DNA of 64,000 bases from Paraspadella gotoi (Eukaryota > Animalia > Chaetognatha). Of this stretch, positions 15,856 through 53,870 are shown one piece after another (within the stretch, counting starts at the first letter, position 1; every line of letters begins with the position of its first letter). The position numbers and the translations under genes were made by a program. The notes under the pieces are model-generated. The model was not told the DNA's origin. It worked only from the letters and a program-made list of their open reading frames with translations, and did not search any database. The stretch spans positions 4,883,773 through 4,947,772 of the forward strand of contig CM119266.1 in assembly GCA_051294375.1 (NCBI GenBank), read 5' to 3'.

Positions 15856-15920
<65 letters not shown>

Positions 15921-20499: not shown

Positions 20500-20535
<36 letters not shown>

Positions 20536-20603
20536 AAATCATCTTTACGGCTGGAAGATGTTTCGGCTTTTTCGTTGACAACTTCCGGTACAACTGGGAG
20601 GTT

Positions 20604-20639
<36 letters not shown>

Positions 20640-24852: not shown

Positions 24853-25312
24853 TAGTGGCGGTAGCGGGGTATGAAATACTACCGCTAAAGTGTGGTAGTG
24901 GGTAATGAATACTACCGCTAGAGTGGTGGTAGCGGGGTATGAAATACTACCGCTAAAGTGGTGGTAGCGGGGTATGAAATACTACGCTAGAGTGGCGGTA
25001 GCGGGGTATGAAATACTACCGTAAAGTGGTGGTAGCGGGGTATGAAATATACCGCTAAGGGCGGTAGCGGGGTATTAAATACTACGCTAAAGTGGTGTAG
25101 CGGCGGTATGAAATACTACCGCTAAAGTGGTGGTTAGCGCGGGTATTAAATACTACGCGCTAGAGTGGCGGTAGGTCGAGGGTATTAAATACTACCGCTT
25201 AAGTGGTGTAGCCGGGGTATGAATACTACCAGCTTAGTGGTGGTAGCGGGGTATGAAATACTACCGCTACAGTTGTGGTAGCGGGAAATGAAATACTACC
25301 GCTACAGTGGTA
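24853..25312. repeat. ~35-bp internally palindromic minisatellite x13
   Basis: Unit agtggtggtagcggggtatgaaatactaccgctaa, head-to-tail with no spacers. Confidence 0.92.
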
Positions 25313-25828: not shown

Positions 25829-25940
25829 CTGCTCGTCGAGGATGGCGACGGCGCTGACGCGTCGTCCTCCGCTCGCAGCGTCAACGCGCGTCGAAGCTAC
25901 AACGCCATCGAAGACGAGGAAGAGTTGACGTCGCCTCAGG
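25829..25940 (+). CDS. Piezo: Piezo exon, cytoplasmic loop (LLVEDGDGADASSSARSVNARRSYNAIEDEEELTSPQ)
   Basis: Acceptor ccccgcag, donor G|gtcagt, 112 nt, phase 0->1. GC-rich open frame in AT-rich flanks; splices in frame to 27365. Confidence 0.72.
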
Positions 25941-27364: not shown

Positions 27365-27454
27365 CTTCCTCCTTGGGGGCGTCTCGTCGATCGTCCGAAG
27401 TCGGTGACGTCACCTACTCGCGTCAAAACGCGACCAACATCGCGATGACTCCGG
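27365..27454 (+). CDS. Piezo: Piezo exon, cytoplasmic loop (ASSLGASRRSSEVGDVTYSRQNATNIAMTP)
   Basis: Acceptor ttccgcag, donor G|gtaagt, 90 nt, phase 1->1. In frame with both neighbours. Confidence 0.75.
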
Positions 27455-27529
27455 GTAAGTTCATGGATTTATTTTGAAAAATTAAAAATGATAAGCTATT
27501 TTTTCCTTCCGCCCGAATTAAAAGCCCTG

Positions 27530-27790
27530 GTTTTTAGTTGCGCCGTAAGTACTCGCCGAGCAACTCTATAAGTCGCTTTTCGGTCCGTCTGTCTGTCGGT
27601 CTGTCCGACTTACGTTAACTAACTCACTCATAGTTGGTTGCTAATTTGCTAAGACAGAAAAAAACCGCCAATCTAAGGGACTGCTAACGCCGCCTTCAGG
27701 AAATCTTAAAACCATAAGGAATAAAAGACGTAATTCCAATACACGGGCTAAGAAAGTCAGTGCAACACATTGGATGAACCGATCTTTAGT
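27530..27790 (+). mobile_element. Non-autonomous Helentron/DINE-1-like dispersed repeat
   Basis: tttttagttgc..gcaactctataagtc head followed by a (GTCN)n microsatellite and a conserved body. Related copies at 40830-41085 (+), 40370-40705 (-) and a fragment at 1098-1134 (-). Family assignment is inferred from architecture. Confidence 0.55.
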
Positions 27791-29843
27791 TAAAAATTAA
27801 ACGATTTAATATTCTTTTCTGATAGTTTTATTTGCATTTAAAAATCCCCGATTTTTTCACTTCACATTTAAAAAAAAATTAATCCGTCCCAGGTTCAAAT
27901 CGTAGGCGACAAGTGATTTAAAATCGTTTATCCTTAAGTCGGAAACCGTTGGAAAAAAGGCTCGAGATGTCGCTTGAGTGTAGAAGGCGGAAGGGGGGGG
28001 GGAAGGGAGTAGAAGAAAGAGAAAAAAAAGATACAAATGGTTTAATGTGAAAAATGACTTGAATTTCTTCTCTCAAGAGGCGTGGGGGGGGTGCTGTGTG
28101 TGTGGGGGAGTTTGAAATGGATTCGCGATGAGGGAAATGAGTAAGAGAGAGAGAGAGAGAGAGAGCGCGATCGAAGATTTGAAAACGGAAGGTAATTGAC
28201 GTCGCAAATTTTAAGTCGAGATTCATTAGTCGCCGTGAATTTTTTTGAAGTTTTTGATATTATGATTTTTAAGGGAAAGTTGAAATAATATTTTGTCAAT
28301 TCTGAGGAAAAAGTTAGCTTAAAGCGAGATAATAAAAAACAAAAAAACAAAAAAACAAAAAACAAAACAACATCGAAAGAAAAAGGAGACATCGAGTGTG
28401 AACGCGGATAAAAGAATCAAAAGGAAAAAAAAGAACATCGACCTCGTTCTCACGGGCAAAAGAAAATCGGGAAAGGGAGCTCGCGGCGATAATCAAAGAA
28501 TCAAAGATGGCGTCCTTTCTTTTGATGAGTTCCGATCATGATTTCCTCTGGCGGATATTTTTTTTTGGGGGGGGAGTGGTGGTTAAAGTTGAGGTGGTTT
28601 TGGGGTGGAAAAAGTGATGTTGAGGGGGTGATGTTCAAAAGGCGATACGGAGTAAATGTGAGACTGGAAGGAGAAAAAAAAAGATTTGTGAGTAACCCGA
28701 CAGTTATAATCTCGATAAACGAGGGGAGGTAAATAATGAAAAAGAAACTAATTGTGTGAAAATAAACATTGTAGGTGGCGCGGCGGTGGAGATCTTGCGT
28801 GGAGGAAGTGAAGAAAAAAAGGGAAACGAAAAGACGAGGAGAGAGAGAGAGCGCGAGCTGTGGCCGACGGCGGTGACGCTAACCAAAGGAAAGGATGAAT
28901 TAAAAATGGATAAAATGACAAAAAAGTCTTGTTCGCTAAAAATAAGAGTAAACCAATGAGCAAGCAGACGATCGAGCCAACAAGGAATTGCCATTCTATT
29001 GGTATTCCTGCGTGCACAAAGGGAATAGAAAACGGAGTAAAATAAAAAAATTGGAAAAAAACCGATAAGAAATATGTACTATTTTGCGTAAGACAAATAC
29101 TGAAAGAAGAAATGAGAAGTCGTAAAAAGGAAAAAAAAAAGGAAAATAAAATAAGGAAAAAAATAGAAAAAATAGAAAAAAGAAAAAAAAGGAAAGACTA
29201 TAATCAAGCGTTCGGTTCGCAGCTCGCGGTTTTCCCTTTAGAAGACCCGCGGGTGGGGCTGGGCATGGGTGTGCCCAGGTTGGGTGGAAGGGCCATTCCG
29301 AAAAAAAGGCGCCCCCCCTTTTTCTTCTTTGTATCACGTGACTCTTTTCGAGTTCTGGGTGAAAAAGGGAAGCCGAAAGAAAAGTGAGAATTTAGTCATT
29401 TGAGCTCCCAAAATGAAACCAATTATTAACAGTTCTGTGTAATTGATAAAAAGAAGACATTTAACAATCGAGGTACATATATATTATACGTACTACGTAA
29501 GATAAAAATACACCTACAGTGTATGATGGACCGAATAAACAGCAGTTGGAGAAGATAATCTCCACAATTTATGGATACAATAGGCGAGTTAACAAAAATA
29601 AATCGGTAATCAAATAAGCAATCATTCGTTCTCATTAAAGAAAATATTTTTTTAGTTTTAAAACAAAATTAAAGGTTAATATCGAAAGATATTTAACAGA
29701 TATTTAACAGTCAGTCCAAATAAAAACTTTTAACTTTGCCTATCTCTGATAAAATAATCCAATAACCGAAATTTCATTAACAATAAATAACGAAATAAAA
29801 AAAACAAAAAACAATCGATAAAGATAACAAAATAACGACAGCG

Positions 29844-30207
29844 TCATAGCATGTGCGGCATAGGCGTGAGACGCGGCAGAGCCGTTTCCAGCTGCTCCAT
29901 TTCCAGCTGCTCCATTTCGATCTCTTCTCCTCTGACGATCCTTTCCTCTTCCTGCTCCGACTCGGCGCAGCGATGCATCCAAGCCGCGACAAAGACGACG
30001 CCGAAGATGATGATGACAAAGTAGGTCCCGAAGAGGCCGCCAGTGAGGAGCCTGTCGGCCTGTCGGTACGTGAGGACGCCGTTGTAGCGAAGACTGTCGG
30101 CTATGGTCTTGAAGATGATGACCGGAGCCATGAAGATGACGAAGACGACGATGTAGCAGAAGGCCTCGAAGCGGGTTGAGCGGAGGGCGCTTTTGAATTG
30201 GCTCCAT
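29844..30207 (-). CDS. Nested MARCH-like E3 ligase, exon 3 (two TM helices and acidic tail, ends ..RLTPMPHML*)
   Basis: Acceptor ctcttcttctccag, phase 2 entry, 364 nt to TGA. Hydrophobic segments AFCYIVVFVIFMAPVIIF and LLTGGLFGTYFVIIIFGVVFVAAWM; strong C-ending codon bias. Confidence 0.88.
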
Positions 30208-30910
30208 CTGGAGAAGAAGAGAATGAAGACTGGTTTGAGAGATGGTGATAGATAGAGAGAAGGAAGTAATAGTGGATACGATCTAAAAATTTTGGATTTA
30301 TAAAATGAAAAAAATGTAGATGAAGAGAATAAATAAATAGTGGATAGAGGGGATGAAGAAATTGTTGGTATAGAAAATTTAGACAGAAAAAAAGACAGTA
30401 GATGGAAATAATGAATAAACTGTGAAGTCGAGCTAAACAAGCAAGGCAGAGAAAAGGTGAGAGAGGAAGCAACTCAGCTGCTTGAAAAAGAAAGACCCAT
30501 TTACATATGCAACAAATTCAAAATCGGTTTCGGATTTAAATTAAAACCCGGTTGAAAAACAAATGATCTCACGAGGGAAGGTCGTGATGCATTGAAGTAG
30601 GAGTGGATTTAACTTGTAAACGATTGTTCACCATTAGGTTGTTTGGTTGCAAAGGTTTAAGAATTAAGCGATAAAGATTATGTTAATGATTTAGTTAAGA
30701 TTAGAATTAGAGATTAGGATTAGGGAAATGCTTAATGTTTAGGGTTTAACGTTAGGGATTTTGGAAATTATTAAGATTAAATATTAAGGTTAGGGATTAA
30801 GGAATAGAAATTAGGCGTTTTCGGAAAATAGTACCTCTCAATAAGAGGGTGAAGCAATAAGATTATAACCCTCTTCATTTCCTTAAATATATTCTGAGAA
30901 TCCTCGGTTC

Positions 30911-30962
30911 CTAAGAGCTCCCACTAAGAGCTCCCACTAAGAGCTCCCACTAAGAGCTCCCA
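30911..30962. repeat. 13-bp tandem repeat x4
   Basis: Unit ctaagagctccca. Confidence 0.85.
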
Positions 30963-31835
30963 AGTGCTCCGGCTCGAATTTAAGCTCTGGATCCTGAGAA
31001 CCAAATAAAGTTCGTCCTCTGGACAAGAATGACCTCGGAAGGTGGAGACTCGATAATTAACCTCCTTCGTCTGACCAAAATAATTGTCCCAAAAAAAAAG
31101 AGGAAAAAGAGACGAATCCTTTCCCCATCGTCTGAATTAATGGAGAGGAAAAGAGAGTAAGAAAACTTATATTTGTTTAATGTTTACATTTAAACAATTA
31201 AGTTCACATTTAGACATGTACTCAATTTAACAATTATGGAACCAGAATATATTGCAACTTTTGTATTTGGGTTTCGACCATTGCCAATATTACGCCCGCC
31301 CACGAATATATTTATCTCTCTCTGTCTCTGTCTTTCTTTCTCTCTCCTCAGAAAAATGGAAGCACGTCTGTTCACGTCGAAAAGGAAACGTGACAATACT
31401 TCCGGAGAGGTCACGTGACAATACTTCCGGAGAGGTCGAGTTTCGTGCGTGAAAAAATTTTATTGGTCCTGGACTTTGTTTGTTTATATATTCAAAAAAT
31501 ATTTAAACTAATAAACTAAGTTTTTTTTAGAGAGAAACTGAACAAACTAGTGTCGGTGGAAGTGGGACGGGGGTGAGGACGTCGAGTGGATGTGGACGAG
31601 AGGGTTGAGGGGTTGAGGACAGGTCCATGTAAAGGGGCGCGTTTTCTTGGGGAGGGCGGGTATGACTGGGTCTTTACCGAGTTCAGCTGATAATCTAAGT
31701 CATATATGTATATATAAGGCGGGTCAAAATTGAACACTTTTTATAACTTTAATTCTCTCAAAAAAATTCCTTTTTTCCTTCTATTACTAAATCGATTTTC
31801 AATGTAACTTTTTGAATTAGTTCATTGGGTTGTTG

Positions 31836-32210
31836 CACTGAAGCTTTTAAATATTTATTAATATATAACAAATGACAAAAATTTTTTTTTTTGAAAATTA
31901 GTTTTTAAGAACGGATCCTATAGAGCTTGAAAAGTAAATAAAAGTTAGTACTACATTTTTTAAAATTTTGACAAGAAATTGGTTAAAAACAGAAAAAAAC
32001 TTAAAAAATCATCATCATCATCATCATCATTGGCTGAATTTTATAGTTTTTAAAATTTTTATCAATAAAACAAAAAAATTTTAAAATTTTGTATTAATAA
32101 CCTTCATCTAACTTTTAAAGCTCTATCAGAATCCATTAAAAAAATTGAAAAATTCAAAAAAAATTTTTAACTTATATAGTAATAAAATAATCTTTAAATG
32201 CTTCCGTGCG
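31836..32210. mobile_element. Degenerate palindromic MITE/foldback element in MARCH-like intron 2
   Basis: Left end gcactgaagcttttaaatatttatt pairs with right end aataatctttaaatgcttccgtgc; inner tagagcttgaaaagt pairs with acttttaaagctcta. (ATC)n at the centre. Confidence 0.6.
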
Positions 32211-33007
32211 CTTATTAATAAGATAATTTTTTAAATTATTTTTATTTTCATATTCTCTAACAGTCACTTTATCATTAATTTATTTGAGAGAACTTCTAGT
32301 TTTCAACCTGTTCCGCCTAATGTATAATGCTTATAACTTAAAAAAAAGTAAAGATCGCATAGTTTGTGTTATAATTCTTAAAATGACCAAAACGATTGTT
32401 AAGTAATAAACTTGACTTACAGCGAAGGCCGTGGGTCCAGAGTCTTGCTTAAGAATGGCCTCTAGTTCTCTAGACTGCTGCTGGTTTGACCGGGGGAAGG
32501 GGGGGGGAAATGGTATTTTGCCGGAAACGAGGACATGGATCGGAGAAGAATGGCACGTGGAAGATGGCAAGGAGATAGCAAGAAGATGGCGAGATGGAGA
32601 TGGATGGAGATTGGAGAGATGGCACGGAGTAAGAGATGGCGCGAAGAAGAGATGGCAACAAAGGGAGATGCGTCGTCAAGAATCGTAATAAGAAAACCAG
32701 AAAAGAAGACGCGTCGCTCGAACGCTCAAATAAATTGACGGGTCAACGAGGAAAAGGCGCTTGAGAGAGGGAATGAGAGAGAGAGAGACAGAGGAGGAGA
32801 CAGGGGTCTAAGTCATGCGATGTTAAGAATGCAGATATTTATAAAAGTCACTTCTCTATTCTGCGATGCGACTAAAAATAAGAATTTTTGTTTTGTTTTA
32901 TTGCATCACGATATTTTTAAATAGTTTTTTGTGAAGGGAATTGTTGGAAAACTGTTTTAACTGTACGCAGAATGGCGAGACGGTGAAAAACGAGAGGGAA
33001 AGACTAA

Positions 33008-33044
<37 letters not shown>

Positions 33045-33329
33045 AATAGAAGAGCTCTCGCAAGAGAGAACGTCGATTGGCCGCAAACGAAACGACTGCG
33101 CCACTAATATCGCTAGTATAGTTCACACTTTTCCACGAGGGTCGACGTTGTGAATGGCGCCGTGACACAAGTTCACATCACAACTCAAGTATCACAATAT
33201 AACCTCTACAACTTGAGGATCGGAAAAAGTGAATAAGGAGTGACAGCTTTATATCACGATAACAGCATGCAGTGGTGTAGTCAGTCATTGCCCAAGTTCA
33301 CCCTGCCTATAACTTGACAACTTCAGTCG

Positions 33330-33500
33330 TGAACCGGTGGCTCATTGGGTAAAGCCATCAGCGTGAGGACGACTGTAAGCCGCCTTGGGGATGTGGAAAA
33401 TCCACTCGCCTGGTTCCAAGCCCGGGACCCGTTCAATTGCTGCTGAGGGGGCACAGGAGATACTGATGGTCGTCTTCATCCACAGTGGCATCATCACAGT
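33330..33500 (+). mobile_element. tRNA-derived SINE-like element (second copy ~34535-34700 in duplicated block)
   Basis: Pol III A-box-like tggctcattggg (~33338) and B-box-like ggttccaagccc (~33412). Spacing is too long for a standard tRNA and no cloverleaf is evident. Confidence 0.4.
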
Positions 33501-33533
33501 ATTAATATCACAATATCACAAATATCATTTCAC

Positions 33534-33639
33534 CTCGATGGTCGACACCGGAAGTGTGAGTTGCACAATTCGCACGTCTTCGTTTCTGAAAGAAGAATCC
33601 ACTGGAGGGCGCAGTCTTTGTGGATGAAGGCGGCCGAAC
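33534..33639 (-). CDS. Nested MARCH-like E3 ligase, exon 2, intact copy (GSAAFIHKDCALQWILLSETKTCELCNSHFRCRPSR)
   Basis: Acceptor tttctattccag, donor AG|gtgaaa, 106 nt, phase 1->2. HxxC..W..CELC completes the C4HC3 pattern; in frame with exons 1 and 3. Confidence 0.88.
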
Positions 33640-34204
33640 CTGGAATAGAAAAATTGGGGGGATTGAATTTTGATGGTTGGAAAGAGTTGATAGATTATCT
33701 TTAAAATNNNNNNNNNNNNNNNNNNNNNNNNNAAAAAAGAAGAGATTTGGAGATTGGAGAGATGGCACGGAGTAGAGATGGCGCGAAGGAGAGATGGGCA
33801 CGGAGTAGAGATGGCGCGAAGGAGAGATGGCACAAAGGAGAGATGACCGACGCATCTCCCTTTGTGCCATCTCTTCTTCGCGCCAAGAATCGTAATAAGA
33901 AAACCAGAAAAGAAGACGCGTCGCTCGACGCTCAAAATAAATTGACGGGTCAACGAGGAAAAGGCGCTTGAGAGAGAGGGAATGAGGAGAGAGAGACAGA
34001 GGTCTATGTCACTGCGATGTTAAGAATGCAGATATTTATAAAAGTCACTTCTCTATTCTGCGATGCACTAAAAATAAGAATTTTTGTTTTGTTTTATTGC
34101 ATCACGATATTTTTAAATAGTTTTTTGTGAAGGGAATTGTTGGAAAACTGTTTTAACTGTACGCAAGAATGGCGAGACGGTGAAAAACGAGAGGGAAAGA
34201 CTAA

Positions 34205-34245
<41 letters not shown>

Positions 34246-34741
34246 AAATAGAAGAGCTCTCGCAAGAAAGAACGTCGATTGGCGCAAACGAAAAGACTGC
34301 GCCACTAATATCGCTAGTATAGTTCACACTTTTCCACGAGGGTCGACGTTGTGAATGGCGCCGTGAGACAAAATCACATCACAACTCACAAGTATCACAA
34401 TATACCCTCTACAACTTGAGGATCGGAAAAAGTGAATAACGAGTGATAGCTTTATATTATGATAACAGCATGCAGTGATGTAGTCGGGCATTGCCAAGTT
34501 CACCCCTGCCTATAACATGACACCTTCAGTCGTGACCCGGTGGCTCATTGGGTAAAGCCATCAGCGTGAGGACGGCCGTAAGCCGCCTTGGGCATGTGGA
34601 AAAGCCTCTCGCCTGGTTCCAAGCCCAGGACCCGTTCCATTGCTGCTGAGGGGGCACAGAATATACTGATGGTCGTCTTCAGCCCAATTAGCGCCTTATC
34701 CACACAGTATTAATATCACAATATCACAAATATCATTTCAC

Positions 34742-34846
34742 CTCGATGGTCGACACGGAAGTGTGAGTTGCACAATTCGCACGTCTTCGTTTCTGAAAGA
34801 AGAATCCACTGGAGGGCGCAGTCTTTGTGGATGAAGGCGGCCGAAC
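34742..34846 (-). CDS. Redundant copy of MARCH-like exon 2, 1 nt shorter (out of frame with exon 3)
   Basis: Identical to 33534-33639 except for one missing base (cacggaag vs caccggaag). Lies in the block duplicated across the 25-N gap. Confidence 0.6.
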
Positions 34847-35061
34847 CTGGAATAGAAAAATTGGGGGGATTGAATTTGAATGGAAGGAGTTGATAGATTA
34901 TCTTTAAAATGGAATATTTCGAGCGAATTAACAGTGATAAAGTTGTTAGTAGTACAGAATAAATATAGTATGTACACGTAAGTTTCTTTATATTAAATAT
35001 ATATTTTATCTTAGCAATTTCGAAAAATGGCTAGAAAGTGGCCGAGAGAGAAGAAGGAGAG

Positions 35062-35093
<32 letters not shown>

Positions 35094-35223
35094 AAAAAGA
35101 AAGAAAAAGGATAGTTATACAGCACGAAGCCAACCTGGACACAATTAAAATAATCTGGACATAACATTGTTAAATGAGACAAATCCTCAGAAAAAGCCTT
35201 ACCTCAGCCGAGCTTAAACTTAC

Positions 35224-35353
35224 CCTTACAATCGCAGGGAGAAATAAGCGGAAGGGCCGAATCGTCGTCATGACAATATCGGCAGATTCGATCTTCCGGA
35301 GAAATCGATTCTTCATCGACGCCGGAAATTCTCGGTTCCGATATCAATTTCAT
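35224..35353 (-). CDS. Nested MARCH-like RING-CH E3 ligase, exon 1 (MKLISEPRISGVDEESISPEDRICRYCHDDDSALPLISPCDCK)
   Basis: ATG preceded by an A-run; CRYCH..LISPCxCKG is the N-terminal half of a RINGv/RING-CH domain; donor G|gtaagt, 130 nt, phase 1. Confidence 0.9.
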
Positions 35354-35787
35354 TTTTTTTTCGGAGATTTTTAGTTTGATAAATTTTTAAAAATGTTTGG
35401 TTTATAATTTGTGTGTTTTTTTTTGTGGTTTAATTGGGTTTGGTTTTGTCGTTTGTGGATTTTTGTGTTTTTGTGTTTTTGTTTTGTTTTTTTTGGTCGG
35501 GAGCACGAGTAATAATTTACTTTTTAAAAAGTTTATTTACTTTTTATGACAAGTTTTTCGCGTGAATATTATTTTATACCATTTTTTGATCATTCAATGT
35601 TTTTTTTTTCGAATAACAGTAAAATCAGAAAACGATTTTCAAGTGAGACGAAAAGGATTTTTGATAAATAATTATTTTGTTTCTTTTGTGGATTTTACGT
35701 TGATTTTGTTTCGCTCTTCCTTTTGAATAAGAATTCCGTATTTATGAGGTCAATAACGAGTTTCTATCTTTGGGCTTCTTTTATTTT

Positions 35788-35829
<42 letters not shown>

Positions 35830-36083
35830 GTGTGTGTGACCGAATCCCCCACGAGATAAAGAGAGAGAAAAAAACAATAACCTTGCCCGTTATGACCTTC
35901 GCCCATTCGAGGAGTTTAACCCCCGCAATTTCTCACTCTCTGATTGGCTAGTTTTTGGCCTCGTGACGACAGAGTGAGGTCTCTCAATGAAGAGGGTAAG
36001 GTAATTCGACGCCCGGCGAAACGAGGAAAACTGCGAGTTTGCTAGGGGGGGGTTAGGTCAGTTCGAGGGTTGATTTATTAGAG

Positions 36084-36146
<63 letters not shown>

Positions 36147-36695
36147 CAGTCATTGATTTATTTACGCGTCGTGCGGGTGAAAATTAAGGAAAAACCATAA
36201 GAAAGAAAGAAAACCATTGTTAACATGAACGTTAAAGATCGCGAGGGTCTTCACGGAATCCCAGTTTCTAAAGAGGATGTGGTCACTGAATGTGATTAGT
36301 CACGTGAATTGACTTTACGATTCTGCGGGCTGAAAGAGGGGGGGGCGGTTGCGGTGAGTGGGGGCAGAATTTGACGATTTAATAATAAAATCTGTTAAAA
36401 AAATTCGGTTTTAAACTACATCTGCATAGATTTTTAAAAAGCTTAATATTTGTAAACAGAGAAAATTAATAAGGCCTCGGTATCCAAATATTGACATAAT
36501 TTGGATCAGTGAGACAAATAATCTGGTAAATTCACAAACATTAGGTTTCTTTACAAATTTATATGAGTTAAAACAAACTAAATTATGTTTAAATTCTCCT
36601 AATCCCTCTACTTTTTTCTCCCCTTTTCCCGCCATTATCTTTATAACAGTTCTTATCTTTATTATTTGTTTACCTTTTGTTTTATTTTTGTTCAG

Positions 36696-36793
36696 TCTCT
36701 CCGGATCCGCGGAGTCAAAAGAGGTCACCACTCGTCACAGTCTTCGTCTTCGTAACGCGACAGTCCTACGTCCTGTCTCTCATCATAATGATG
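36696..36793 (+). CDS. Piezo: Piezo exon (VSPDPRSQKRSPLVTVFVFVTRQSYVLSLIIMM), start of THU3/TM9
   Basis: Acceptor tttttgttcag, donor ATG|gtaatt, 98 nt, phase 1->0. QSYxxxLIxMM is a conserved Piezo motif. Confidence 0.9.
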
Positions 36794-38686: not shown

Positions 38687-38757
<71 letters not shown>

Positions 38758-39070
38758 ATGATTACTAAAGCCTTTTCTCTAGATCCATCTCCTCTCCGTA
38801 ATGGAAAAGGTCGTCTTTCTTAGGCTTCGGGGAATCAAGAAATGGGGATCGACATCTAGCGGCGAATATTTCCTCAGTTTAGTGTCACTCACTCTCTCTT
38901 TCTCCTCCCCTTTTCCCCTCTCTCCCTTTTCTACTTCTTCTCCCTTCCTCTCTCCTCTTTCATTCACACTCTCTAATTTTCCTATTTCTCTCTCTCTCTC
39001 TTTTTCCTCCCTTTTTCCTCCCCCCTCCCTCTCTCCCTTCCCTCTCTCGCCCACCCTCTTTATCTCCCCA

Positions 39071-39106
<36 letters not shown>

Positions 39107-39294
39107 TCTCCTCTCTCTCTCTCCTCTCTCTCTCCTCTCTTCACTCTCCCATCTTCTTTACTTCCTATTTTTTCTCTTCTTCCTCTTCTCTCTCTCTCTC
39201 TCTTTGTCTCTATTTCCCTCTGCACCTCCATCTCTCTTTCCTTCCCCTCCTTATCTCTCTCACTCTATCTCTCTCTCTCTCCCTCTTTTATCAG

Positions 39295-39389
39295 CAGTGG
39301 AGCGCAAACCACAGCCTGCTGACCTTCATCCTCTTGCTGTGGGCCTGTTTGATCTGGATGCTGCCCAACTCGCGCAACTGGTGTCTGAG
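39295..39389 (+). CDS. Piezo: Piezo exon (QWSANHSLLTFILLLWACLIWMLPNSRNWCLR), TM10
   Basis: Matches the Piezo WSITYHSWLTFVLLLWACLIW motif; donor AG|gtaagt, phase 0->2. The first codons are probably mis-called here, since the copy at ~50800 reads closer to WSVTYHS. Confidence 0.9.
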
Positions 39390-40369
39390 GTAAGTTCAAC
39401 AGGCTGGGTGAGTTTAGGTAAGGTGCGAGGCGAATACGAGGCTGCGTTGAATGCTTGGTGAGATCGCTCGGTCGGTCAGTCCAGGAATATGACTATCATA
39501 AAAAAAGATTGATATTGTTAAATTTTATAAAAAGAGAAATATAATATTGTATTTAAATTATTTTAATTTGCTTTTGATCCGTTGCTTAATAACTCATTTA
39601 TCCTGCATTAGAAAAATAATCAAGTTAATCACGAGAGTGTTGGTGTAGTGAAAGGGAGGCAGGGTAAGTGACGTAGGGTAAGTTTAGGGATCCAAAGTGG
39701 CTTTATTATAATTCCATTTTTATCTCGGGGAATAAAGGAAAGTTTTACTCAGGCCTTTCGGCTTTAATCATATGGCGGGTTCTCTCATGTCTTTTTTATC
39801 ATTTAAACCCTTACTAATAATAATTTATTAATTATTAAACTTGTTTAAACCTTAGTCATTTTCTTTCTTCGTCTGAAAACCCTTTTTCGTTAATTTTAAC
39901 TCACAAAGTGTTTATATTTAAAAAAATATTGGTTTTTTAAGTTAATTTTAATTGAGAATAAACTTATAGAGGAGGCTGGGAGCGAATTTGTTTTATATGT
40001 TTTATTAATTATCAATAGGGCTAAAGTTTCTGCGGCCAAAGGACCAAAACAAAGGAGATAAAAACGACTCTATTTTTTTTTTTTTTTTATCGTCGCGCGT
40101 TTTTGTTGTCGTTGTTGTTGTTTGCGATAAAACAAACAACGCAAATCGGTCGTCGATAAAATGTTTTTCCTCGTTTTGTTTTCAATTTCGTATTTACATT
40201 ATTATTTTTTTCCTCACTGATTTTTCCTTCTTCTTTCTCTGTCTTATTTCATGTTTATTATTTTATTTTTCAAAGGTTCTTGTCTCTGGTTTAGAGATAA
40301 CGGAGATCCGAGAGCGCCACATTTAGATTTCTGATCATGTCCCTGACCCATAACCTAATTATTAAACCT

Positions 40370-44000: not shown

Positions 44001-44509
44001 AAATCGTGCTGACATGACTCTTGTCTTTTGCTGGATTTGTTGTTCCAGTTGCTCCATCTGGTCAACGAGATCGAATATCAAGGGTTTTTCAACATAATAT
44101 AATTATAAAACTAAATCTTATTAAAAAAAATGTATATATAATGTTCACGAACGACCGATGATCTCCGTTTTTAACTTTGCCTGCAGTAATCACCAACTTT
44201 TAATATTTATACATTCTATATCCAGTTAATTATTGTCTTATACTGGTCGGCGACCTACATCGTACTTCTTATAACAATAATTACGTGGTATGGACTTCAG
44301 AATATATTTTAGTTCAGAGTTATGCAGTTTCACATACAGTTCTACATTACGATCTTACATAGATGTCTCATCTCGTGCTCTTACCTCACCTTTCCATGCG
44401 CGTGTGTGAGGTTCCCTTCCCCACACGGGATTCCCAATGGAACCTTTTACACTTTTTAACACATTCTGATGTTTCGTTGCTTTANNNNNNNNNNNNNNNN
44501 NNNNNNNNN

Positions 44510-47500
44510 AGGCAAGAAAGGAGAGAGTAGATAAAACATTAATAGATAAGGAGCGCGATAGATAATAGAAACGAAAAAAGGAATGAGATAATTTTAGTAG
44601 ACAATTGAGGCAAGAAGGGAGAGAGAATAGAAGCAAGAAAGAAAAGTAAAGATTATAAGACTAAAAAAAAGGGAGACACAAACGCAAAAGAATAGACACG
44701 AGCAGAAATGTAAATATAAACTTCTGGCATAACATTGTTAAATCGAGAGCAAAGAGAGTTCTCTCTAGAGAGAGAGTTAAGAGCCTTTAACCTCACCGTA
44801 GCTTAAACTTTAACCGCTTGAACCAATCACAGGGAGAAACGCGGACAGAGGCCGAATCGGTCGTCATGAAATATCGGGCGGGAGATTCGATCTTCCCCGG
44901 GAAGAACTCGATTCTTCATGCGGCGGCGGAAATTCTCGGTTCCGATATCAATTTCATTTTTTTTTCGGAGATTTATAGTTTTGATCAATTTTAAAAAAAT
45001 GTTTGGTTTTATATAATTTGTGTGTTTTTTTGTGGTTTAAGTTGGGTTTGGTTTTGTGTTGTGGATTTTTGTGTTTTTGTGTTTTTTGTTTTGTTTTTAT
45101 TTGGTCGGGGAGCTACCGAGTAATTAATTTACGTTTTTAAAAAGTTTTATTTTACTTTTGTATTGACAAGTTTTTCGCGTGAACGAGATGTGATTATTTA
45201 ATTAATCTCGATACCCTAATTGTTCGTCGTTTCGTGTGAGAATTCATTATCCCATCATATGACCATCGTTGTCGTTTCTGGTCTTATTTGCCGTGATATG
45301 CTGCTCACCACAACACTTCAGAAACCGATTTGAAGTCGAGACGAAAAGGATTTTTGATGAAATATATTATTTTGTTTCTTTTGTGGATTTACGTGATTTT
45401 GTTTCGCTCTTCCTTTTTGGAATAAGAATTCCGATATTTAAATTGAGGTAAATAAGCAGGAGTTCCTAGTCTTTGGGCTTTTTTATTTTTGTGTGTGTGT
45501 GAGAGAGAGAGAAAGCAGAGATCGATCAGAGGTGGAGAGAGACGTGCATAGTAGTTGCAGTGGTCGGTACGCAAGAGGAGAAGATTCCAACACGAGCCAC
45601 AAAAATGACGATACGAGAAAAAAACAATAAACCCGAGATCGAGCTCACCAGTTAATGAACATACTGTAAGCGCCGCCAAATCGTCGAGGACGTGAGATAG
45701 AATCTCCCCTGTTCTATAAATATTTCGCGCTAACTTCTTGGCTGATGCTCAGTCTCTTCTGAGGCTCGTGTGCCGACGTGATAGTCGAACAGAAGACAAG
45801 ACAGTTGGACGCGTGTCGCTCAGTAAGAAGACAGGAGAGTAAGGCAACGGAGGAGTATTTCGGAACATTGGACGAGAAAACGAGAGAAGGTTGAAAAAAA
45901 ACTTGGACGATATTGCTAGGGGGGGTAGATTAAAGGGATGATCTAAGTTAGAGAGGGTTTCCGTATTTTATTTGAGATGAGAGCATGAACGAGAGTGAGG
46001 AGTGAGACTGAGAGAGAGATGTCACACTTGAGATGCAGCACGCAGTCAGAGAGTACGCTCCGCCGTCTCACTTGATTTTCATCTTTACACTCTCTTCTCG
46101 CGGTCGTTCGCGGAGTACTCAAATTAAGGATCAAAACGCAATGAAGTAAGAGAAGATCACACACCAGTCTTAACTATGAACGTTATAAGATCGCGAATAC
46201 GGTGCTTCTCTACGGGTCATCTCCCTCCAGTTTACTCTTAAGAGAGTCGTATCTTTGTGGTCTATTCCGCTGGGCTGTAAAGGCGTGATACTTAGTCCGC
46301 AGCTGTAAGTTCTCGAATTTTGAGTTTTACTGCGATAGATCTCTCTCTGTCGTAGCGAGACACGTCTGGAGAGAGGAGGAGGAGAGGAGGAGAGGCAGAG
46401 GGGAGCATGAGTAGCAGGTAGTGGGGGCAGAATTGCGTACAATGAATTATTAGTTATAATAATAACATACTCATGGGTGGTGATGAAAGAATATATTATA
46501 TACAAGAGGTCTATATTTGATAACGTAATCAGTTGCGCTGCTAGTGAGTGAACAGATGTAAAGTTAAAAATAGAAACTACATATAATAATATATTTCTCG
46601 TAAACAGAAGAAAATCTATGAGAGTTTGACGAACAGAGATGTCTCAGAAAGTTGATAGTCTCTGCATTGGTCCGAAAAGGAAATTGACATAAATTTGCTT
46701 GGTGTGATAAAGGATAGATGAATATCCACAAATATATATCTGGTAAAGCCTATTTATTCGCTTAGCAAACAAACACGCAAGTTCAGGCAGTTTTTCGTTC
46801 ACAATTTAGTATGATGTTAGAATAACTATAATATATGCTTTTAACAGAATCGAGTGCTCTCCTCGCCTACACTGGTGGGCGCCGCTAGGCCGGCGGCTCT
46901 ATCCGTCGTTGGTTGGGCCTTCTCCGCGGTGTGTCGGCGCCCCGCACTGTGTAGGGCTAAGACTACAACATCCTCTCTTATCAGTCCTATTAGTGTGACG
47001 GTCCTCGCTTTACCTGTTTTGCCCTTTTCATATTTTTGTGTGCGCGAGCCCTCCTGCTCCAGAGGAGGCCCACTGCCAGGGGTATCATCACCAGAGCAGG
47101 TCAGGGCAGACTTTAGAAAGACCGTCTTAGTCTCGTCGCTGTGCGTGTCGCGGCTTACATCCCGCCGACGGAGGGTGTACTCGCAATTATGTCTGCCTGG
47201 TCTTCATCACCACTGAGAAGAGTGGTCTAATCTGTTGGACTACGCGATTTCACTCACCGCCCGATATTATCTCATTACATCTCCACACTAAGTCCATCTC
47301 TCTCTTAGCTAAGTTACATTTTTGTGGGGTTCAAACGATCTTTCTACTTCTCTCTTTCATTCGTTATTACCAAAAAATAAAACGCACGATTTAAATGAAT
47401 ATTCGATGAAATTGGAGAACGTATCTGCACCTCGCTTCTCTATCATGCTTCCTCTTCTGTAGTACTCTTACCTTTTCTTTTTTTTTTCTCGATCATGTGT

Positions 47501-50500
47501 TCTTTATTTTAAATCATCGATTATATATAATAGTAACCCACTAAAGTGAAAACAACACTACTCATTATTTGGTGGTGAACACATGTAGACAATTTTAATT
47601 TCCCCACGATAAATTTTATGCTCAGAGTGCACACCGAGATTTAGATTTGGTGACGCGCTTCGAAACGCACGTTATTAGGACAATTATGTATATTTTGGAT
47701 AAATATAAGTTATAGAAAATAATTTAAGTATAGTTACAAATGGAACACTTTATACTCTTTGAGAGTTCACTGATAATAATGTTGGTCACTTTTTAGAATT
47801 GGTGGATATATAGAGCTTTGTGAAATAAGAGTGTTTTTGTTGAGACTCATCATTGTAATCCGAAAGATTACGATTTGTCAGAAGCTGATATGTCAACTGT
47901 GTTAAATTGTAATAACAATACGTTGGTATCACTCTTGCAGCCTCTATTCATACTCACTATAGCCACTAATTTGGATCTGTCGAGAACTCAATCAACACTT
48001 TGAACGAGTATTAGAATATTATTAACTTTCATCTTGCTCGAGATAGATAATGAGAGTTTAAAGTATGAATCACAAATGAGAGACTAGAGAACAACACTCT
48101 GTGTCACTAAGTCTCTAATGATGAGAGTATTCTATGGCTTCGCCGTATAGTAACATACTTTGTATGGAAATTCCTTTTTCGCATATTAATATTTGTCTCA
48201 CAGACATTAAACTGCACTTCTCTTCTCTAGTTGCGCACTGCCACATGCAATTTTCACCTTTCTTAACCGACTACTACACCACATTTATCCTCTAATTCAT
48301 CCTCCACTAGATGTAATCACAATTGTACACTGTAAGTAATAGCTTATTAAAAAAGAAGAGATAAGAAAAGAGAAGTTATTATCCACTCATACACATACGA
48401 GTAAATCTAATTTGATTCGTATAAATACGTGTATATACAATTGTATTAATTGATGTCCACTTTAATAGATTTTACAGTCAGGTTCAGAGGTTCTGTCCCA
48501 AGCACAACTTAGCAGTGGGGAGCCTCTCTCAAGATGGCTCTCTAGTGATTTATGATATATTGCGCATCCTCTCCGCGCAAATGCACTCACTAATTAGGTG
48601 GGTGGTGGGGTATGTCAAAAAGTGCGCTGTTGTGATAGTCTGTTGGAGCTAGATGAGCTCCACCACAGGTTGTCTTGGCCGTGCCTCGCTCTCATTCTGG
48701 GAGCTGAGATCCTAAAAGGCCTGCATCTTTCTTCCGTGGTTAACCAACGTCGAATATATTCCGAAGTATATATCTGGACGTATAGAGAGTACAGAAGAGA
48801 GCCACAATGATGTTTATAATGTATATAGCAGAATACCTATAAAATGATATATATATAAGTTTAATTTGTCAGGCACGCGGCTCGGTGAGGACAAACGTCA
48901 TATATTTTCTACATCTCGCTTTAGCCTCATCCGGTCGTATTTTTTAAATCAGTTTGTGGATGAAATTATTGTTTCTCTTGGCGCGTGTGGATTTGCACGC
49001 CATGAGAGTTAACGCGCTCAAGCTTTACGTTTCAAGTTATAAAATATATAGCTGTTCAAGAATCTATATAGTTTATGTTCTCTTAAGCTATAAAGATTAG
49101 GCTATAGGATTTTGGTGTCGGGGGACTTAAATTGAGGTATGAATTTCGGATTAGGAAAGAATGGTTAGGTTTATAGAGCTTAGCGTCGTGTTAGATATGA
49201 ATAGGGTATCATATTAAATTGTTTCTCCTATAGAAGGGCTAAGTTCATTAAAGAGGTTAAAGAACATAATAGTATGAGAAGAAATTATATATTTATAAGT
49301 TTTAATACATTAAAATTTTAATAAATTATGTTTCAGTCTCGTTCAGTCGCATGCAGTGATGTCTCATCCCGAGTAATTTTATTTTATTTTTATTTTTTTT
49401 TAATTTAAGCAAACCAATTATTAATTTACCGCTAACCTTAATCCTCGCTACCCCTAACCTAAACACGCCTCATATAACGAAAGAACGCAGAACGAGAGTG
49501 AGAAAAAGTCAAAGGAAATATAAAAAGAATGAGATATATATGAATATAAAATAAATAATAAGAGACTCATGAAATATGTACTTATTGAGCTAGTTCAAAG
49601 CGGGAATTGTCGATATATAAGGCGGAAGTCTTTTATATAGAGATAAAATAGAGAGCCGGATGCTGCTCTTTGCTCTATATCTTCTCTGCTTTGCCTACTT
49701 GTATCCATAGTCCGCTCAATCATTTACATCTTGTGAGCTTATCTATATTATCTTAATTATTCTTCCGTCTTTATTCTTTTTCTCACACATTCTCATTTCT
49801 GTACAATATAATAATTAAGTTTGCAAAATTACAAATATTATAATTTTATCAATGATAATATTTCTTCCTTTTTATTTTCCTATTTTTCCTATTTCCTAAC
49901 TTAGCCCTTGTAATTTTTAAATTAGCTATTATATTGGGCACAGTTACATTTCTTTCTCTCTTTGCTTTGGTCTCTTTATCTCATTCTTTCAATTGACATT
50001 GTCTCTAATTCTCTCTCTCTACATTCTCTCTCATATAACTCTACAACACATCTCTGGGTCATTTTGATTAGAGAAAGAATCAGCTTATTCTCTAAGATGC
50101 CATGAGCACTCGCACGGAGTAATAGAGAAAAGAGAGTACGGTACTTTCTTAGCACTTCGGGGAAAATGCAAGGAAAGAATGGGGAATACGGAAAGCACGA
50201 GAGCAGGCAGAGAGAATTATGCACTATCAAGTTTAGATATGAGAGTCACTACAAACAGATCTCATATATTATCGTCACTCCCACCACTTATATGTCAACC
50301 TGATCGTCGATTTACTGTACTAATCTCAGTATTCACACAGCTCGTCTCACTCGCAGATGCACGCTACTTGCAATTCACAACTCACTTCAGTTGAAATGTT
50401 CCTCTATTAGTGCATGAAACGTATCGATATTCGCTTATTGAGCTCACCTATATGTTAGTACCGTCACCGCCTATACCCGACGTACTCCCTCCCTCCATCC

Positions 50501-53500
50501 TCTCGCCGGGAGAGAGCAGTCGGCACCTCTTTATCTTCCCTTCCTCTTCTCTCTTCTCCTTCCTCTTCATGATCTCTCTTCACTCTCCGGATCATGTTAT
50601 TATACTTCCTATTTTTATCTCCTCTCTCTCTCCTCTGCTCTTGTCCCTATTTACCTCATGTCACCGCGGCCATGCCTATCATCATTTCAGCTTCCCCTCA
50701 CTATTCTCTCTCTCCTCTCTCTCTCTGCGTTCAGTTCGATGCTCTCAAGTCCGCGTCTCTCTCTCTCTCACTCCTCTCCTCATAATTTTTATGTCTAGGT
50801 CGTTGGATGCGTCACCATACCACAGCCTGCTCTGACCTTCATCGCACTGCTTGCTGTGGCCTGTTTGATCTGGGATGCTGCCACAACTCGCGCACTGGTG
50901 TCTGAGGGTAAGTTCAACAGGCTGGGTGAGTTTATGGCTAAGGTGCGAGGCGAATACGAGGGCTGCGTTGAATCGCGTGTGAGATCGCTCGGTCGGTCAG
51001 TCCATGGAAATATGACGAATCATAAAAAAGATTTGATATTGGTTAAATTTATAAAATAGAGAAGCATATATTGTATTTAAATTATTTTAAACTGGCTTTT
51101 GATCCGTTGCTTAATAACGTCATTTGTCCTGCATTAGAAAAATAATCAAGTTAATCCAGCGGAGAGTGTTTGGTGTTGTGAAAGGGAGGCGAGGGTAAGC
51201 TGAACGTAGGGTAAGTTAGGATCCAAAGTGGCTTTATTATAATTCCATTTTTATCTCGGGGAATAAAGGAAAGTTTTTACTCAGGCGCTTTCGGCTTTAA
51301 ATCAAATGGCGGGTTGCTCTCATGTCTTTTTTATCATATAAACCCTGATAATAATATTTATTAATTATTAAACTGTTTTTAAACCTAGTCTATTTTCATT
51401 TTCTCGTCTGAAAACCTTTTTCGTTTAATTTTTAATCTCACATAGTGTTTTATTGTAAACAAATATTGGGTTTTTAGTTAATTTTAATTGAGATAAACTA
51501 CTATAGACGGAGGCACTAGGGAGTGGCGAAATTTGTTGTATGATGTTTTATTTAATTATCATATGCTATGTTTCCGCAAAAGGACCACAACAAGGAGTAT
51601 AAAAAACGACGGTCTATTTTCTTTTTTTTTATCGTCGGCGCGTTTTTGTTTGTCGTTGTTGTTGTTGTTTGGCGATACAACAAAAACGCTCAAATCGGTC
51701 GTCGATAAAATGTTTTTCCTCGTTTTGTTTTCTTTTCGTATGTACATTATTTTTTTTCTACATCAACAGACTTTTTTCCATTCTCTTTCTCTGTCTTTAT
51801 TTCATTTTATTTTTTTTTTATTTCAAAGGTTCTTGGTCGTGTGGTTTGAGATAACCCGGCACTATTTTCCGAGAGCGCCACATTTAGATTCCTAATCATA
51901 TCGCCTGACACGCATAACCTAGATAATTCACCTAACAAGGACGGTAATTCCTATGTGTTGCGCCGCGCATATGACTTTATTTTCACTTATTTTTTTATTT
52001 GATCACATGATATGACATGAATTGACTTAAAAGACTTTCTTTGCCCGTGTATTTATGACAATGCACTGCAATCAAAATTTCGCTTTTCCATTCTCTTATA
52101 GTTTTAGGAATTTAGTTGAAAATGGCGGTAGCAGTTCCGCTTCAGATTTGGAAGATTTTTTCTGTCTTAACAAAATGAGCAAATAACTATTGCAAATTAT
52201 ACTATTTTTAACGAGTAAGGCAGGCGCATGCCAAAAACAAGTGACTACAGTTCCGCTGGAGCAACTCGAATATAAGTTACTTTATTCGGTGGTTAGTTGG
52301 TGTATAGTCAGCGCCTGGCGTTTGTCCAATCTTTAGGCGGTTAAAAATGTCAATATTCCACTCAGTTATGTGAAACATTGATAGCGGAAAATGTTAAGTA
52401 CTGCTCACGTCCTGTATGTCCTTTCCGAGTTGCAACCAATGTTAGCCGGCGTTAATAAGTCTTTTTGAGTGGCTATGTCCCGCCCCGGTTGTACACAGAA
52501 AATGACATAATAGCTAAGATTACTGTACGGCTACCGCATAGAAAACCAAACAGTAAAAAACGACTAGGCAGTGGGCGCAACAACACATTGAATTTCCGTT
52601 CTTGCTCTCTTTTTTTTCTTTTTCTATTCATCTTCCATATCGATTTTTCCCAACGGCATAAACTTGGATCCCATTTTTCTTTTTCCTCTTTTTTATCGCT
52701 ACTTTCCTTTTTGTTTTTATGCTCTCGCTCTCACGCTCTTTTCTAACTTTCTAGGAGCCTTACCTATTTTTTTATTCTCTGTTACCGTCACCTTTTCCAT
52801 GCGCGTGTGGTGAGGTTCCCTTCCCCACACGGGATTCGCGAATTGGAACCTTTTACACCTTTTTAAACACAGTTCTGATGTTTCGTTGCTTTTACATGGA
52901 ACTAATATTCCATCAATTTTTTTTTATTAAATCCTTAAATCATGTTCTTCTTATATGCTTTCATGTTTGAAACTTTCTTGTTTGTTATAAATTATTCTTT
53001 TTTGTTTTAATTGGAACCTTCTTCTATTTTTAATACTCTTTTTCCGTCTCGTTTCTGCCACCTCCGGGCTTTCTCGCTGCTTTCCCGCCGGCCTTACTCC
53101 CGCTCCTCGCTCACCTTCGGCCTGCGCGACTTCTGCGCCGATCCTTCTCTCCAGCCTCCTGATTAAAAAACCGCCACCGAGACTGTCATGGCGCCCGTTT
53201 CAGGCAAACGGCGCTACTCTTTTCTACCGGCGCGCAAAAGCGGCGTCGAAAAGGCGCCATACAGAACGGTTCCGGCGTCTCTCTCTCTCTCGCTTCTCTC
53301 TGTCTCTCTCTCTCTCTCTCTCTTTCTTTGCTCTTCGCGAAATGATAAACTCAGAACGGCGGAAGTGGCCACGCCCACTTGCAGTCCGGCGGCCCTGCTG
53401 ATTTGATCAGGTCAGTGAGGAGGAACCCTACTTTTTTTCGCTTTATTTTGCTTTTTTTGCTTTATATTATTCAGTCAGAGTATTTATCTAGTGATGTCTC

Positions 53501-53870
53501 TATTGTTTGTATTAATGATTAGTATCTAATTCTTGTTTTCATGTTGACGTTAATAGCTTAATCTCTTTGACATGACTGCTTTCTTTTTGCTGATGTTGTT
53601 CTCAGTTGCTCCATCTGGTCAATGAGATCGAAAAAGGTTTATCAAAGGGCATAGATAGTAAGATGAAGTAAAATAAACCTTATTAAAACAAATGTAAATA
53701 ATGGTTCAAAAAAAATGTAAATAATGTTCACGAACCGACCGATTGATCCGTTTTAATTTTTGCCTTTGAGAAAAACTTTAATTATATATCTATATTTTAT
53801 ATTATTAATTAATTCCGTGTTATCTGCGGCTTAATCGTATTCTTAAACAATAATTACGTGTAGGATTCAG
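44510..53870 (+). other. Error-rich redundant copy of ~35080-44350 (probable uncorrected long-read gap fill)
   Basis: Collinear with 35080-44350 but full of 1-3 nt insertions. Contains garbled copies of MARCH exon 1 (~44810-44957) and two Piezo exons (~47040-47225, ~50797-50908). Starts right after a 25-N gap. Confidence 0.85.

What the first reader, a model, noticed from the sequence alone, without database searches (positions are those of the whole stretch)
29844..35353. Complete MARCH-type RING-CH membrane E3 ligase gene nested antisense inside a Piezo intron
Seen: three - strand exons (35353-35224, 33639-33534, 30207-29844) have canonical splice sites and matching phases (1, 2) and give a 600-nt CDS of 199 aa. 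The protein has C24-x2-C27, C40-x-C42, H50-x2-C53, W57 and C66-x2-C69, then two hydrophobic helices and an acidic tail. The whole gene lies in the Piezo intron 27455-36695 and is invisible in the ORF track. Established: RING-CH plus 2 TM is the MARCH1/2/3/8 and herpesvirus K3/K5 architecture, which ubiquitinates plasma-membrane proteins for endocytosis and recognises substrates partly through TM helices. Inference: a membrane-protein-downregulating ligase inside a mechanosensitive channel gene could form a coupled module, through transcriptional interference with Piezo or ubiquitination of Piezo. I know of no description of this nesting but cannot search for one.
Basis: partly seen in the sequence, partly recalled or inferred. 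Interest (0 to 1): 0.85.

Follow-up and report, generated by a model that had tools for sequence, protein, structure and literature searches.

The report
Membrane ubiquitin ligase inside Piezo intron
A small three-exon gene for a predicted membrane-bound ubiquitin ligase of the known MARCH type lies backwards inside what is likely an intron of the touch-sensing Piezo channel gene, probably an ordinary nested gene with no functional tie to Piezo.

Summary
The gene is real. The three exons, splice sites and 199-aa product are as described. Exons 1 and 2 tile Pfam RINGv positions 1-21 and 22-47 and match PDB 2D8S; two hydrophobic helices follow. A contig from a run guessed to be RNA lies only on exon 2, with no differences. 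A homologue spans the exon 2/3 junction in the same frame.

Nesting is likely, not proven. Piezo exons downstream are certain. The two upstream exons have no Pfam hit, but one starts where hemichordate Piezo isoforms splice, and the phases chain.

Nothing links the ligase to Piezo functionally. Antisense nesting is common and usually functionally unrelated (PMC3814207, PMC4394429). Conservation of the nesting could not be tested. Verdict: new member of a known family in a common arrangement; low interest.

The parts
35224..35353 (-). Ligase exon 1, coding part: start codon and first half of RING-CH (C24, C27, C40, C42); phase-1 donor
   Evidence: RINGv 1-21/47, E 0.011; PDB 2D8S residues 4-37, E 0.01
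33534..33639 (-). Ligase exon 2, 106-nt in-frame copy: second half of RING-CH (H50, C53, W57, C66, C69)
   Evidence: RINGv 22-47/47, E 3.1e-6, above cut-off; 2D8S residues 39-68, E 3.3e-5; contig X1 record 8 lies only on 33534-33640 with 0 differences; DNA contig X2 record 11 identical over 33334-33705
29844..30207 (-). Ligase exon 3, coding part: linker, two hydrophobic helices, acidic tail, stop codon
   Evidence: hydropathy and GC3 0.79; homologue P0001 52% identical, E 2e-27
29386..29843 (-). Inferred 3' UTR of the ligase; the end is estimated from the 822 nt of contig on the exon-3 side
   Evidence: inference record positions (arithmetic); run X1 holds all sampled words of 29560-30215; no AATAAA/ATTAAA found
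35354..35590 (-). Inferred 5' UTR of the ligase; the end is estimated from the 367 nt of contig on the exon-1 side, assuming no further intron
   Evidence: inference record positions
34741..34845 (-). Second, 105-nt, frame-broken copy of exon 2 within a 1.1-kb overlap duplicate beside the 25-N gap; likely assembly artefact or uncollapsed allele
   Evidence: no contig with this one-base loss listed
25829..25940 (+). Likely Piezo loop exon (phase 0 to 1) upstream of the host intron
   Evidence: begins at the residue motif where hemichordate isoforms splice; rank 1 of 640 acceptor-started peptides, GC3 0.78; no Pfam hit
27365..27454 (+). Likely Piezo loop exon (phase 1 to 1) that opens the host intron
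   Evidence: strong splice sites; open chain with its neighbours; GC3 0.72; no homology hit
27455..36695 (+). Host intron (9.2 kb) containing the whole ligase gene on the opposite strand
   Evidence: GT/AG ends and phase match
36696..36793 (+). Piezo exon (phase 1 to 0) that closes the host intron; about 1.1 kb from the inferred ligase 5' end, head to head
   Evidence: Piezo_TM1-24 PF24871 380-407/682, E 2.8e-5, below cut-off; tblastn and profile hits
39293..39391 (+). Next Piezo exon (noisy at its 5' end); further exons at 53.9, 59.0, 61.1 and 63.8 kb
44600..53800 (+). Noisy collinear duplicate of about 35000-44340, with a broken copy of ligase exon 1 (44824-44957) and of a Piezo exon (50816-50907); likely a raw long read in a filled gap

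Best explanation
This is a spliced three-exon gene encoding a 199-residue RING-CH protein with two hydrophobic helices, predicted to be a MARCH-type membrane ubiquitin ligase, that likely sits in a Piezo intron on the opposite strand as an ordinary nested gene working independently of Piezo. Shown: exon structure, RING-CH residues, two hydrophobic segments, a contig confined to exon 2, and Piezo exons downstream. Inferred from the family: both termini face the cytosol; the zinc-binding RING recruits a ubiquitin-charged E2; the helical hairpin, with a 12-residue block invariant in the homologue that includes a GxxxG, engages membrane substrates; these are ubiquitinated and sent to endosomes and lysosomes. 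Inferred from nested-gene statistics: the position reflects a small, fast-evolving gene landing in a large intron, with the antisense orientation kept because it avoids mis-splicing.
For: Gene; RINGv tiling 1-21 and 22-47; 2D8S 4-37 and 39-68; X1 record 8 (1296 nt) aligns only on 33534-33640 with 0 differences, while DNA contig X2 record 11 runs through both boundaries; P0001 is 54% identical over 99 residues and crosses the exon 2/3 junction without a gap. Nesting: PF24871 hits downstream in profile order; 14 Ptychodera and 2 Saccoglossus sequences with three different upstream splice choices all resume at the motif that opens exon 25829; this exon scored 12.2 against a next-best 7.6 among 640 candidates; phases 0-1, 1-1, 1-0 give an open chain; no N gap lies between 27454 and 29844 or between 35353 and 36696. 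Independence prior: PMC3814207 (abstract and opening) and PMC4394429 (passages).
Against: No exon for the conserved first eight Piezo helices was found in 1-25800, so the upstream side rests on two loop exons without a Pfam hit. The rank test was post hoc: the homologue segments were chosen after seeing the motif. X1 is only guessed to be RNA, contigs give no strand, and neither junction partner of exon 2 was laid directly. The residue between the first two cysteines that is Ile in 2D8S is Tyr here; its role in E2 binding is recalled. Independence from Piezo is a prior, not a result. In C. elegans, opposite-nested pairs are fairly often co-expressed (PMC12274878, abstract and passages).
Confidence: 0.7

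Rival explanations
1. The two genes are coupled at the level of transcription. The ligase promoter, about 1.1 kb head to head from Piezo exon 36696, either interferes with full-length Piezo or fires both ways and makes a shorter Piezo lacking the first two blade units.
For: Geometry: inferred 5' end near 35590 against exon 36696. Precedent: nested ceh-10 induces a short transcript of its host polq-1 (PMC12274878, passages). C. elegans PEZO-1K lacks THU1-4 and still gates (PMC12951647, passages). In-frame Met codons end exon 36696-36793.
Against: No Piezo transcript data were obtained. The ceh-10 authors favour a by-product without function. Fly nested pairs are less co-expressed than neighbours. 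A product from those Met codons would likely start inside a helix (inference).
Confidence: 0.15
2. The ligase ubiquitinates Piezo and removes it from the surface, and the nesting keeps enzyme and substrate together (the reader's protein-level module).
For: MARCH proteins down-regulate multi-pass membrane proteins such as CFTR and the beta-2 adrenergic receptor (PMC4897099, passages). PIEZO1 can be ubiquitinated and degraded, by TRIM25 (PMC12033990, search listing only).
Against: Only proximity supports it. Most nested genes are functionally unrelated to their host. Three searches pairing Piezo with MARCH terms showed no such report among the rows listed (20 of 147, 15 of 42, 15 of 33).
Confidence: 0.06
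3. The ligase is not nested. The two upstream exons are not Piezo, or the scaffold is mis-joined, so the gene lies upstream of a Piezo fragment.
For: No conserved N-terminal Piezo exon in 25 kb; 13 N gaps and several overlap duplicates in the window.
Against: Conserved exon start, rank 1 of 640, GC3 0.78 and 0.72 against a background mean of 0.43 (3.5% of 926 windows reach 0.7), and a three-exon phase chain. Exon 36696 is an internal exon at profile position 380, so earlier exons must lie upstream. The noisy duplicate repeats the order ligase exon 1, then Piezo exon.
Confidence: 0.07
4. The gene is broken or has two alternative copies of exon 2, one frameshifted.
For: The 105-nt copy lies nearer to exon 1 and would truncate the protein at 113 aa. 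The exon-2 block differs by 33 substitutions and 18 gap events, more substitution-rich than the other duplicates, so a second allele is possible.
Against: In one search one DNA contig and one RNA-like contig both carry the 106-nt form and no one-base loss is listed there, though contigs drop rare variants and only 24 of 699 pieces were shown. P0001 keeps the 106-nt frame. The two copies flank a 25-N gap.
Confidence: 0.02

Closest known systems
Two-TM MARCH (MARCHF) ligases, MARCH1/2/3/4/8/9/11; closest solved domain PDB 2D8S, 'cellular modulator of immune recognition' (its identity with MARCH8 is recalled)
   Same: N-terminal C4HC3 RING-CH with conserved Trp, followed by two hydrophobic helices and a short tail; both RING exons hit 2D8S contiguously
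   Different: Only 199 aa. The TM region found 1 hit among 9 candidates of 66-210 aa and no usable Atlas hit, so it is divergent and no subfamily could be assigned. No tyrosine in the tail, no evident PDZ end, Tyr for Ile in the first zinc pair.
Herpesvirus K3/K5 (PDB 1VYX, ORF K3)
   Same: Same RING-CH plus two-TM layout (PMC4897099); exon 2 hits 1VYX at E 0.019
   Different: Weaker match than to 2D8S; has two spliceosomal introns; Arg-Tyr, not the extra Trp that marks the viral RING-CH, follows C24. No sign of viral origin.
Opposite-strand nested genes, e.g. ceh-10 in polq-1 (C. elegans); OMG/EVI2A/EVI2B in NF1 (human)
   Same: Complete gene with its own introns inside a host intron, opposite strand
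   Different: The host here is Piezo; one search for a gene nested in a Piezo intron gave 2 papers, neither relevant by title or abstract start. Conservation and expression coupling are untested here.

Membership tests
RING-CH (RINGv) domain | C4HC3 zinc-ligand order and spacing | tested here: met
   C24-x2-C27-x12-C40-x-C42-x7-H50-x2-C53-x12-C66-x2-C69
RING-CH (RINGv) domain | Pfam PF12906 above its curated cut-off | tested here: met
   Exon 2 alone 27.7 bits against 21.6; exon 1 covers the other 21 positions at 16.3 bits. The spliced protein was not scanned whole.
RING-CH (RINGv) domain | Conserved Trp after the His-x2-Cys pair | tested here: met
   W57 aligns with the Trp of 2D8S and 1VYX
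Two-TM MARCH ligases | N-terminal RING-CH followed by two transmembrane helices | tested here: met
   Two hydropathy peaks (maxima 2.51 and 2.41), mirrored in P0001; hydropathy only, no dedicated TM predictor; definition from PMC4897099
Two-TM MARCH ligases | Recurrent but not universal YxxPhi sorting motif in the tail and C-terminal PDZ-binding motif | tested here: not met
   By inspection: no Tyr in residues 157-199; the C-terminus is not shared with P0001. These are accessory features.
Two-TM MARCH ligases | Orthology to a named subfamily (1/8, 2/3, 4/9/11) | tested here: inconclusive
   No full-length MARCH sequences were retrieved, so no tree; best solved-structure hit is 2D8S for both RING exons
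Two-TM MARCH ligases | E2-dependent ubiquitin transfer and down-regulation of a membrane protein | not testable with these tools
   needs an assay
Opposite-strand nested gene | Own spliced transcript | tested here: met
   Contig confined to exon 2 with long unlaid arms; homologue across junction 2/3. RNA status of X1 is a guess; strand not shown.
Opposite-strand nested gene | Host exons on both sides joined in one mRNA | tested here: inconclusive
   Downstream exons certain; upstream exons likely; the junction itself was not seen in RNA
Functionally coupled nested pair | Nesting conserved across lineages; co- or anti-expression; physical or regulatory effect | not testable with these tools
   No own genome and no animal genome collection among the tools; contigs cannot give expression level

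The most novel reading that the evidence does not exclude
The nested ligase is a built-in regulator of Piezo: its promoter, 1.1 kb head to head from a Piezo exon, switches cells from full-length Piezo to a blade-shortened isoform or silences it, and the ligase may also ubiquitinate the channel, giving one locus that sets both the make-up and the turnover of a mechanosensor.
Probability: 0.1. Interest if true: 0.65.

Novelty: new member of a known kind. Interest (0 to 1): 0.22.

Why it matters
As it stands it is an annotation gain: a divergent invertebrate MARCH-type ligase that gene callers could miss or break, because exon 2 is falsely doubled and the gene hides in a host intron. It would matter more only if coupling were shown. 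I found no MARCH ligase reported to act on Piezo in the rows listed, and a nested promoter producing a blade-shortened Piezo would offer a mechanism for isoforms of the kind known in C. elegans.

Tried and rejected
No own genome was held, so paralogues and the Piezo 5' exons could not be searched. No run on record as RNA was listed among the holders ('no RNA holder listed'; X1 is a guess). A read-laying over the whole host intron gave no result, so the Piezo junction across the intron and the ligase's exon 1 and exon 3 boundaries remain unseen. In one search, run X10 laid nothing and run X6 did not cover exon 2; neither is evidence. Homologue searches with a Piezo exon and with exon 2 found nothing; both are weak searches. 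Atlas: no usable hit for exon 3; no answer for exon 2 or P0001. The TM alignment A2 had no PDB hit better than E 0.16. A strict exon finder returned 4 candidates and missed exon 25829. tblastn with 10 long Piezo homologues and an 11-sequence profile over 3005 ORFs found no N-terminal Piezo exon; P0026 and P0029 were left out as repeat-like. A second ligase paralogue at 44.8-45.0 kb was rejected: no exon 2 or 3 copy there, and differences are gap-dominated. A second nested gene at 15.7-16.6 kb was considered; Pfam showed only low-complexity or weak hits. Viral origin rejected (introns, better match to the cellular RING). No structure or complex prediction was run: only single exons could be submitted, and proximity alone is no reason for a binding job. 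Earlier findings of this scan: none in 3 look-ups. No supplements were read; none bears on a claim here.
Full report
OBSERVATION. They give 600 nt and 199 residues with C24, C27, C40, C42, H50, C53, W57, C66 and C69. Scanned exon by exon, exon 1 matches Pfam RINGv PF12906 positions 1-21 of 47 (16.3 bits, E 0.011, below the 21.6 cut-off) and exon 2 matches 22-47 (27.7 bits, E 3.1e-6). Both hit PDB 2D8S contiguously, residues 4-37 and 39-68. Hydropathy gives two peaks, windows starting at 90-100 and 131-143, and the last 40 residues hold 12 acidic against 3 basic residues.

IS IT SPLICED. Nine of 11 listed runs hold exon 3 and its downstream DNA; none is on record as RNA, and X1 is guessed to be RNA. 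Laid on 33110-33705, X1 record 8 (1296 nt) aligns only on 33534-33640 with no difference and no gap, at record positions 823-929. DNA contig X2 record 11 runs unbroken over 33334-33705, also with no difference. A contig that stops at both exon boundaries while DNA goes on is what a spliced mRNA gives. Its arms, 822 nt on the exon-3 side and 367 nt on the exon-1 side, are long enough for exon 3 plus a 3' UTR to about 29386 and exon 1 plus a 5' UTR to about 35590 (inference). The partners of the two junctions were not displayed, and contigs give no strand or level. A 12-residue block at the start of the second helix (130-141), containing a GxxxG, is identical in both.

The assembly here is rough: 13 N gaps and several overlap duplicates. 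Exon 2 and about 1.1 kb of flank occur on both sides of the 25-N gap at 33708-33732 at 90% identity. The nearer copy is 105 nt and would stop the protein at 113 aa. Both contigs that cover exon 2 carry the 106-nt form and no one-base loss is listed (contigs drop rare variants, and 24 of 699 pieces were shown). About 35000-44340 is repeated in the same order at 44600-53800: 27 of 30 N-free tiles beat their shuffled controls, 2 of 32 tiles were dropped for N, and differences are mostly gaps (35 gap events against 9 substitutions over exon 1 and its upstream DNA). It holds a broken exon 1 and a broken Piezo exon but no exon 2 or 3; the copy of Piezo exon 36696 itself was not recovered in it. I read it as a raw long read in a filled gap, not a paralogue.

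IS IT NESTED. Piezo exons downstream are certain: PF24871 positions 380-408 (36.7 kb, below cut-off), 435-483, 480-538, 537-589 and 602-650 in order, plus the 39.3-kb exon by tblastn and profile. Named homologues are mollusc, hemichordate, annelid and rotifer Piezos (8 of 10 looked up carry a name). Upstream is harder. No exon for the first eight helices was found in 1-25800, and the exons at 25829-25940 and 27365-27454 have no Pfam hit. Four things favour them. First, in 14 Ptychodera and 2 Saccoglossus sequences, three different upstream splice choices all resume at one Leu-Leu-Val-Asp motif, and exon 25829 opens in phase 0 with Leu-Leu-Val-Glu-Asp. Second, scored against that segment of five homologues, this exon ranks 1 of 640 acceptor-started peptides, 12.2 against 7.6 (post hoc, since the segments were chosen after seeing the motif). 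Third, phases 0-1, 1-1 and 1-0 give an open chain into the certain exon. Fourth, GC3 is 0.78 and 0.72 against a background mean of 0.43. There is no N gap between 27454 and the ligase's end, nor between its start and 36696. I put nesting at about 0.9; the Piezo junction was not seen in RNA.

HOW IT MOST LIKELY WORKS. By family knowledge (PMC4897099, passages), a RING-CH followed by two helices is a membrane ligase with both ends in the cytosol that ubiquitinates membrane proteins for endocytosis and lysosomal turnover. I infer the same here; activity and substrates are untested. Against full likeness: no tyrosine in the tail and no evident PDZ end (by inspection), a Tyr where 2D8S has Ile in the first zinc pair (the importance of that position for E2 binding is recalled), and a TM region too divergent to place in a subfamily. 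As to Piezo, the only link is position. About 10% of fly genes and 1% of human genes are nested, two-thirds of the human ones antisense, most functionally unrelated to the host (PMC4394429, passages). Fly nested genes evolve faster and are less correlated with their hosts than ordinary neighbours, and the antisense bias is attributed to selection against mis-splicing (PMC3814207, abstract and opening). A small, divergent gene with introns lying antisense in a 9-kb intron fits that picture.

RIVALS. Transcriptional coupling is the best rival (0.15). The inferred ligase 5' end is about 1.1 kb head to head from Piezo exon 36696. In C. elegans, nested ceh-10 induces a short transcript of its host and co-expression of opposite-nested pairs is fairly common, though the authors favour a by-product (PMC12274878, abstract and passages). 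PEZO-1K lacks four blade units and still gates (PMC12951647, passages). No data here test this. Ubiquitination of Piezo by this ligase (0.06) has only general plausibility: TRIM25 degrades PIEZO1 (PMC12033990, listing only). Not nested (0.07) and broken gene (0.02) are covered above.

NOVELTY. New member of a known family in a known kind of arrangement. I found no description of this particular pairing: 'piezo + nested gene + intron' gave 2 papers, neither relevant by title or abstract start. Piezo with MARCH terms showed none among the rows listed (20 of 147, 15 of 42, 15 of 33); the one candidate I opened mentions MARCHF only in a reference (PMC13722695). These searches cover open-access text only. 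Earlier notes of this scan held nothing. Absence from print is expected for an arbitrary host/nested pair and does not make it surprising.

VERDICT. Observation confirmed; interpretation partly supported; interest 0.22. The boldest reading left open, a nested ligase that sets Piezo isoform or turnover, has probability about 0.1 and would merit about 0.65.

Noticed in passing
window 33310-33478 (and copy at 34504-34681): A roughly 170-bp very high-copy repeat in ligase intron 2: summed contig depth up to 8e5 against 132 on flanking single-copy DNA in run X2; also abundant in X1. No tRNA or Rfam match; possibly a short interspersed element.
   Followed up: partly
window 33807-33892: A long near-perfect hairpin (-60 kcal/mol, z -11, 0 of 200 shuffles), present in only one of the two overlap copies. 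All 9 Rfam microRNA hits are far below their gathering scores. Could be a small foldback element or an assembly product.
   Followed up: partly
window 44600-53800 vs 35000-44340; 39362-41253 vs 41283-43212; 32613-33707 vs 33788-34910: Overlap duplicates beside 25-N gaps, with gap-dominated differences, inflate this Piezo locus by more than 10 kb and would mislead gene callers.
   Followed up: yes
window 1-25800: No exon for the conserved first eight Piezo helices in 25 kb; they lie before the window, in gaps, or are too noisy to detect.
   Followed up: partly
window 15700-16570: GC-rich, Asp-rich plus-strand frames (Val/Ile-rich on the minus strand); only weak or low-complexity Pfam hits. Unexplained; may be a degenerate triplet repeat.
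   Followed up: partly
window 16565-17330 vs 20291-20896; 18275-18656 vs 19556-19925; 18690-19530; 24854-25311: Inverted pairs around the gaps at 19531 and 19926, an array with a period of about 56 bp and one of about 34 bp, periods read from self-blast offsets.
   Followed up: no
P0053-P0066, P0028, P0052: Hemichordate Piezo is alternatively spliced in the same cytoplasmic loop that holds the host intron here.
   Followed up: partly
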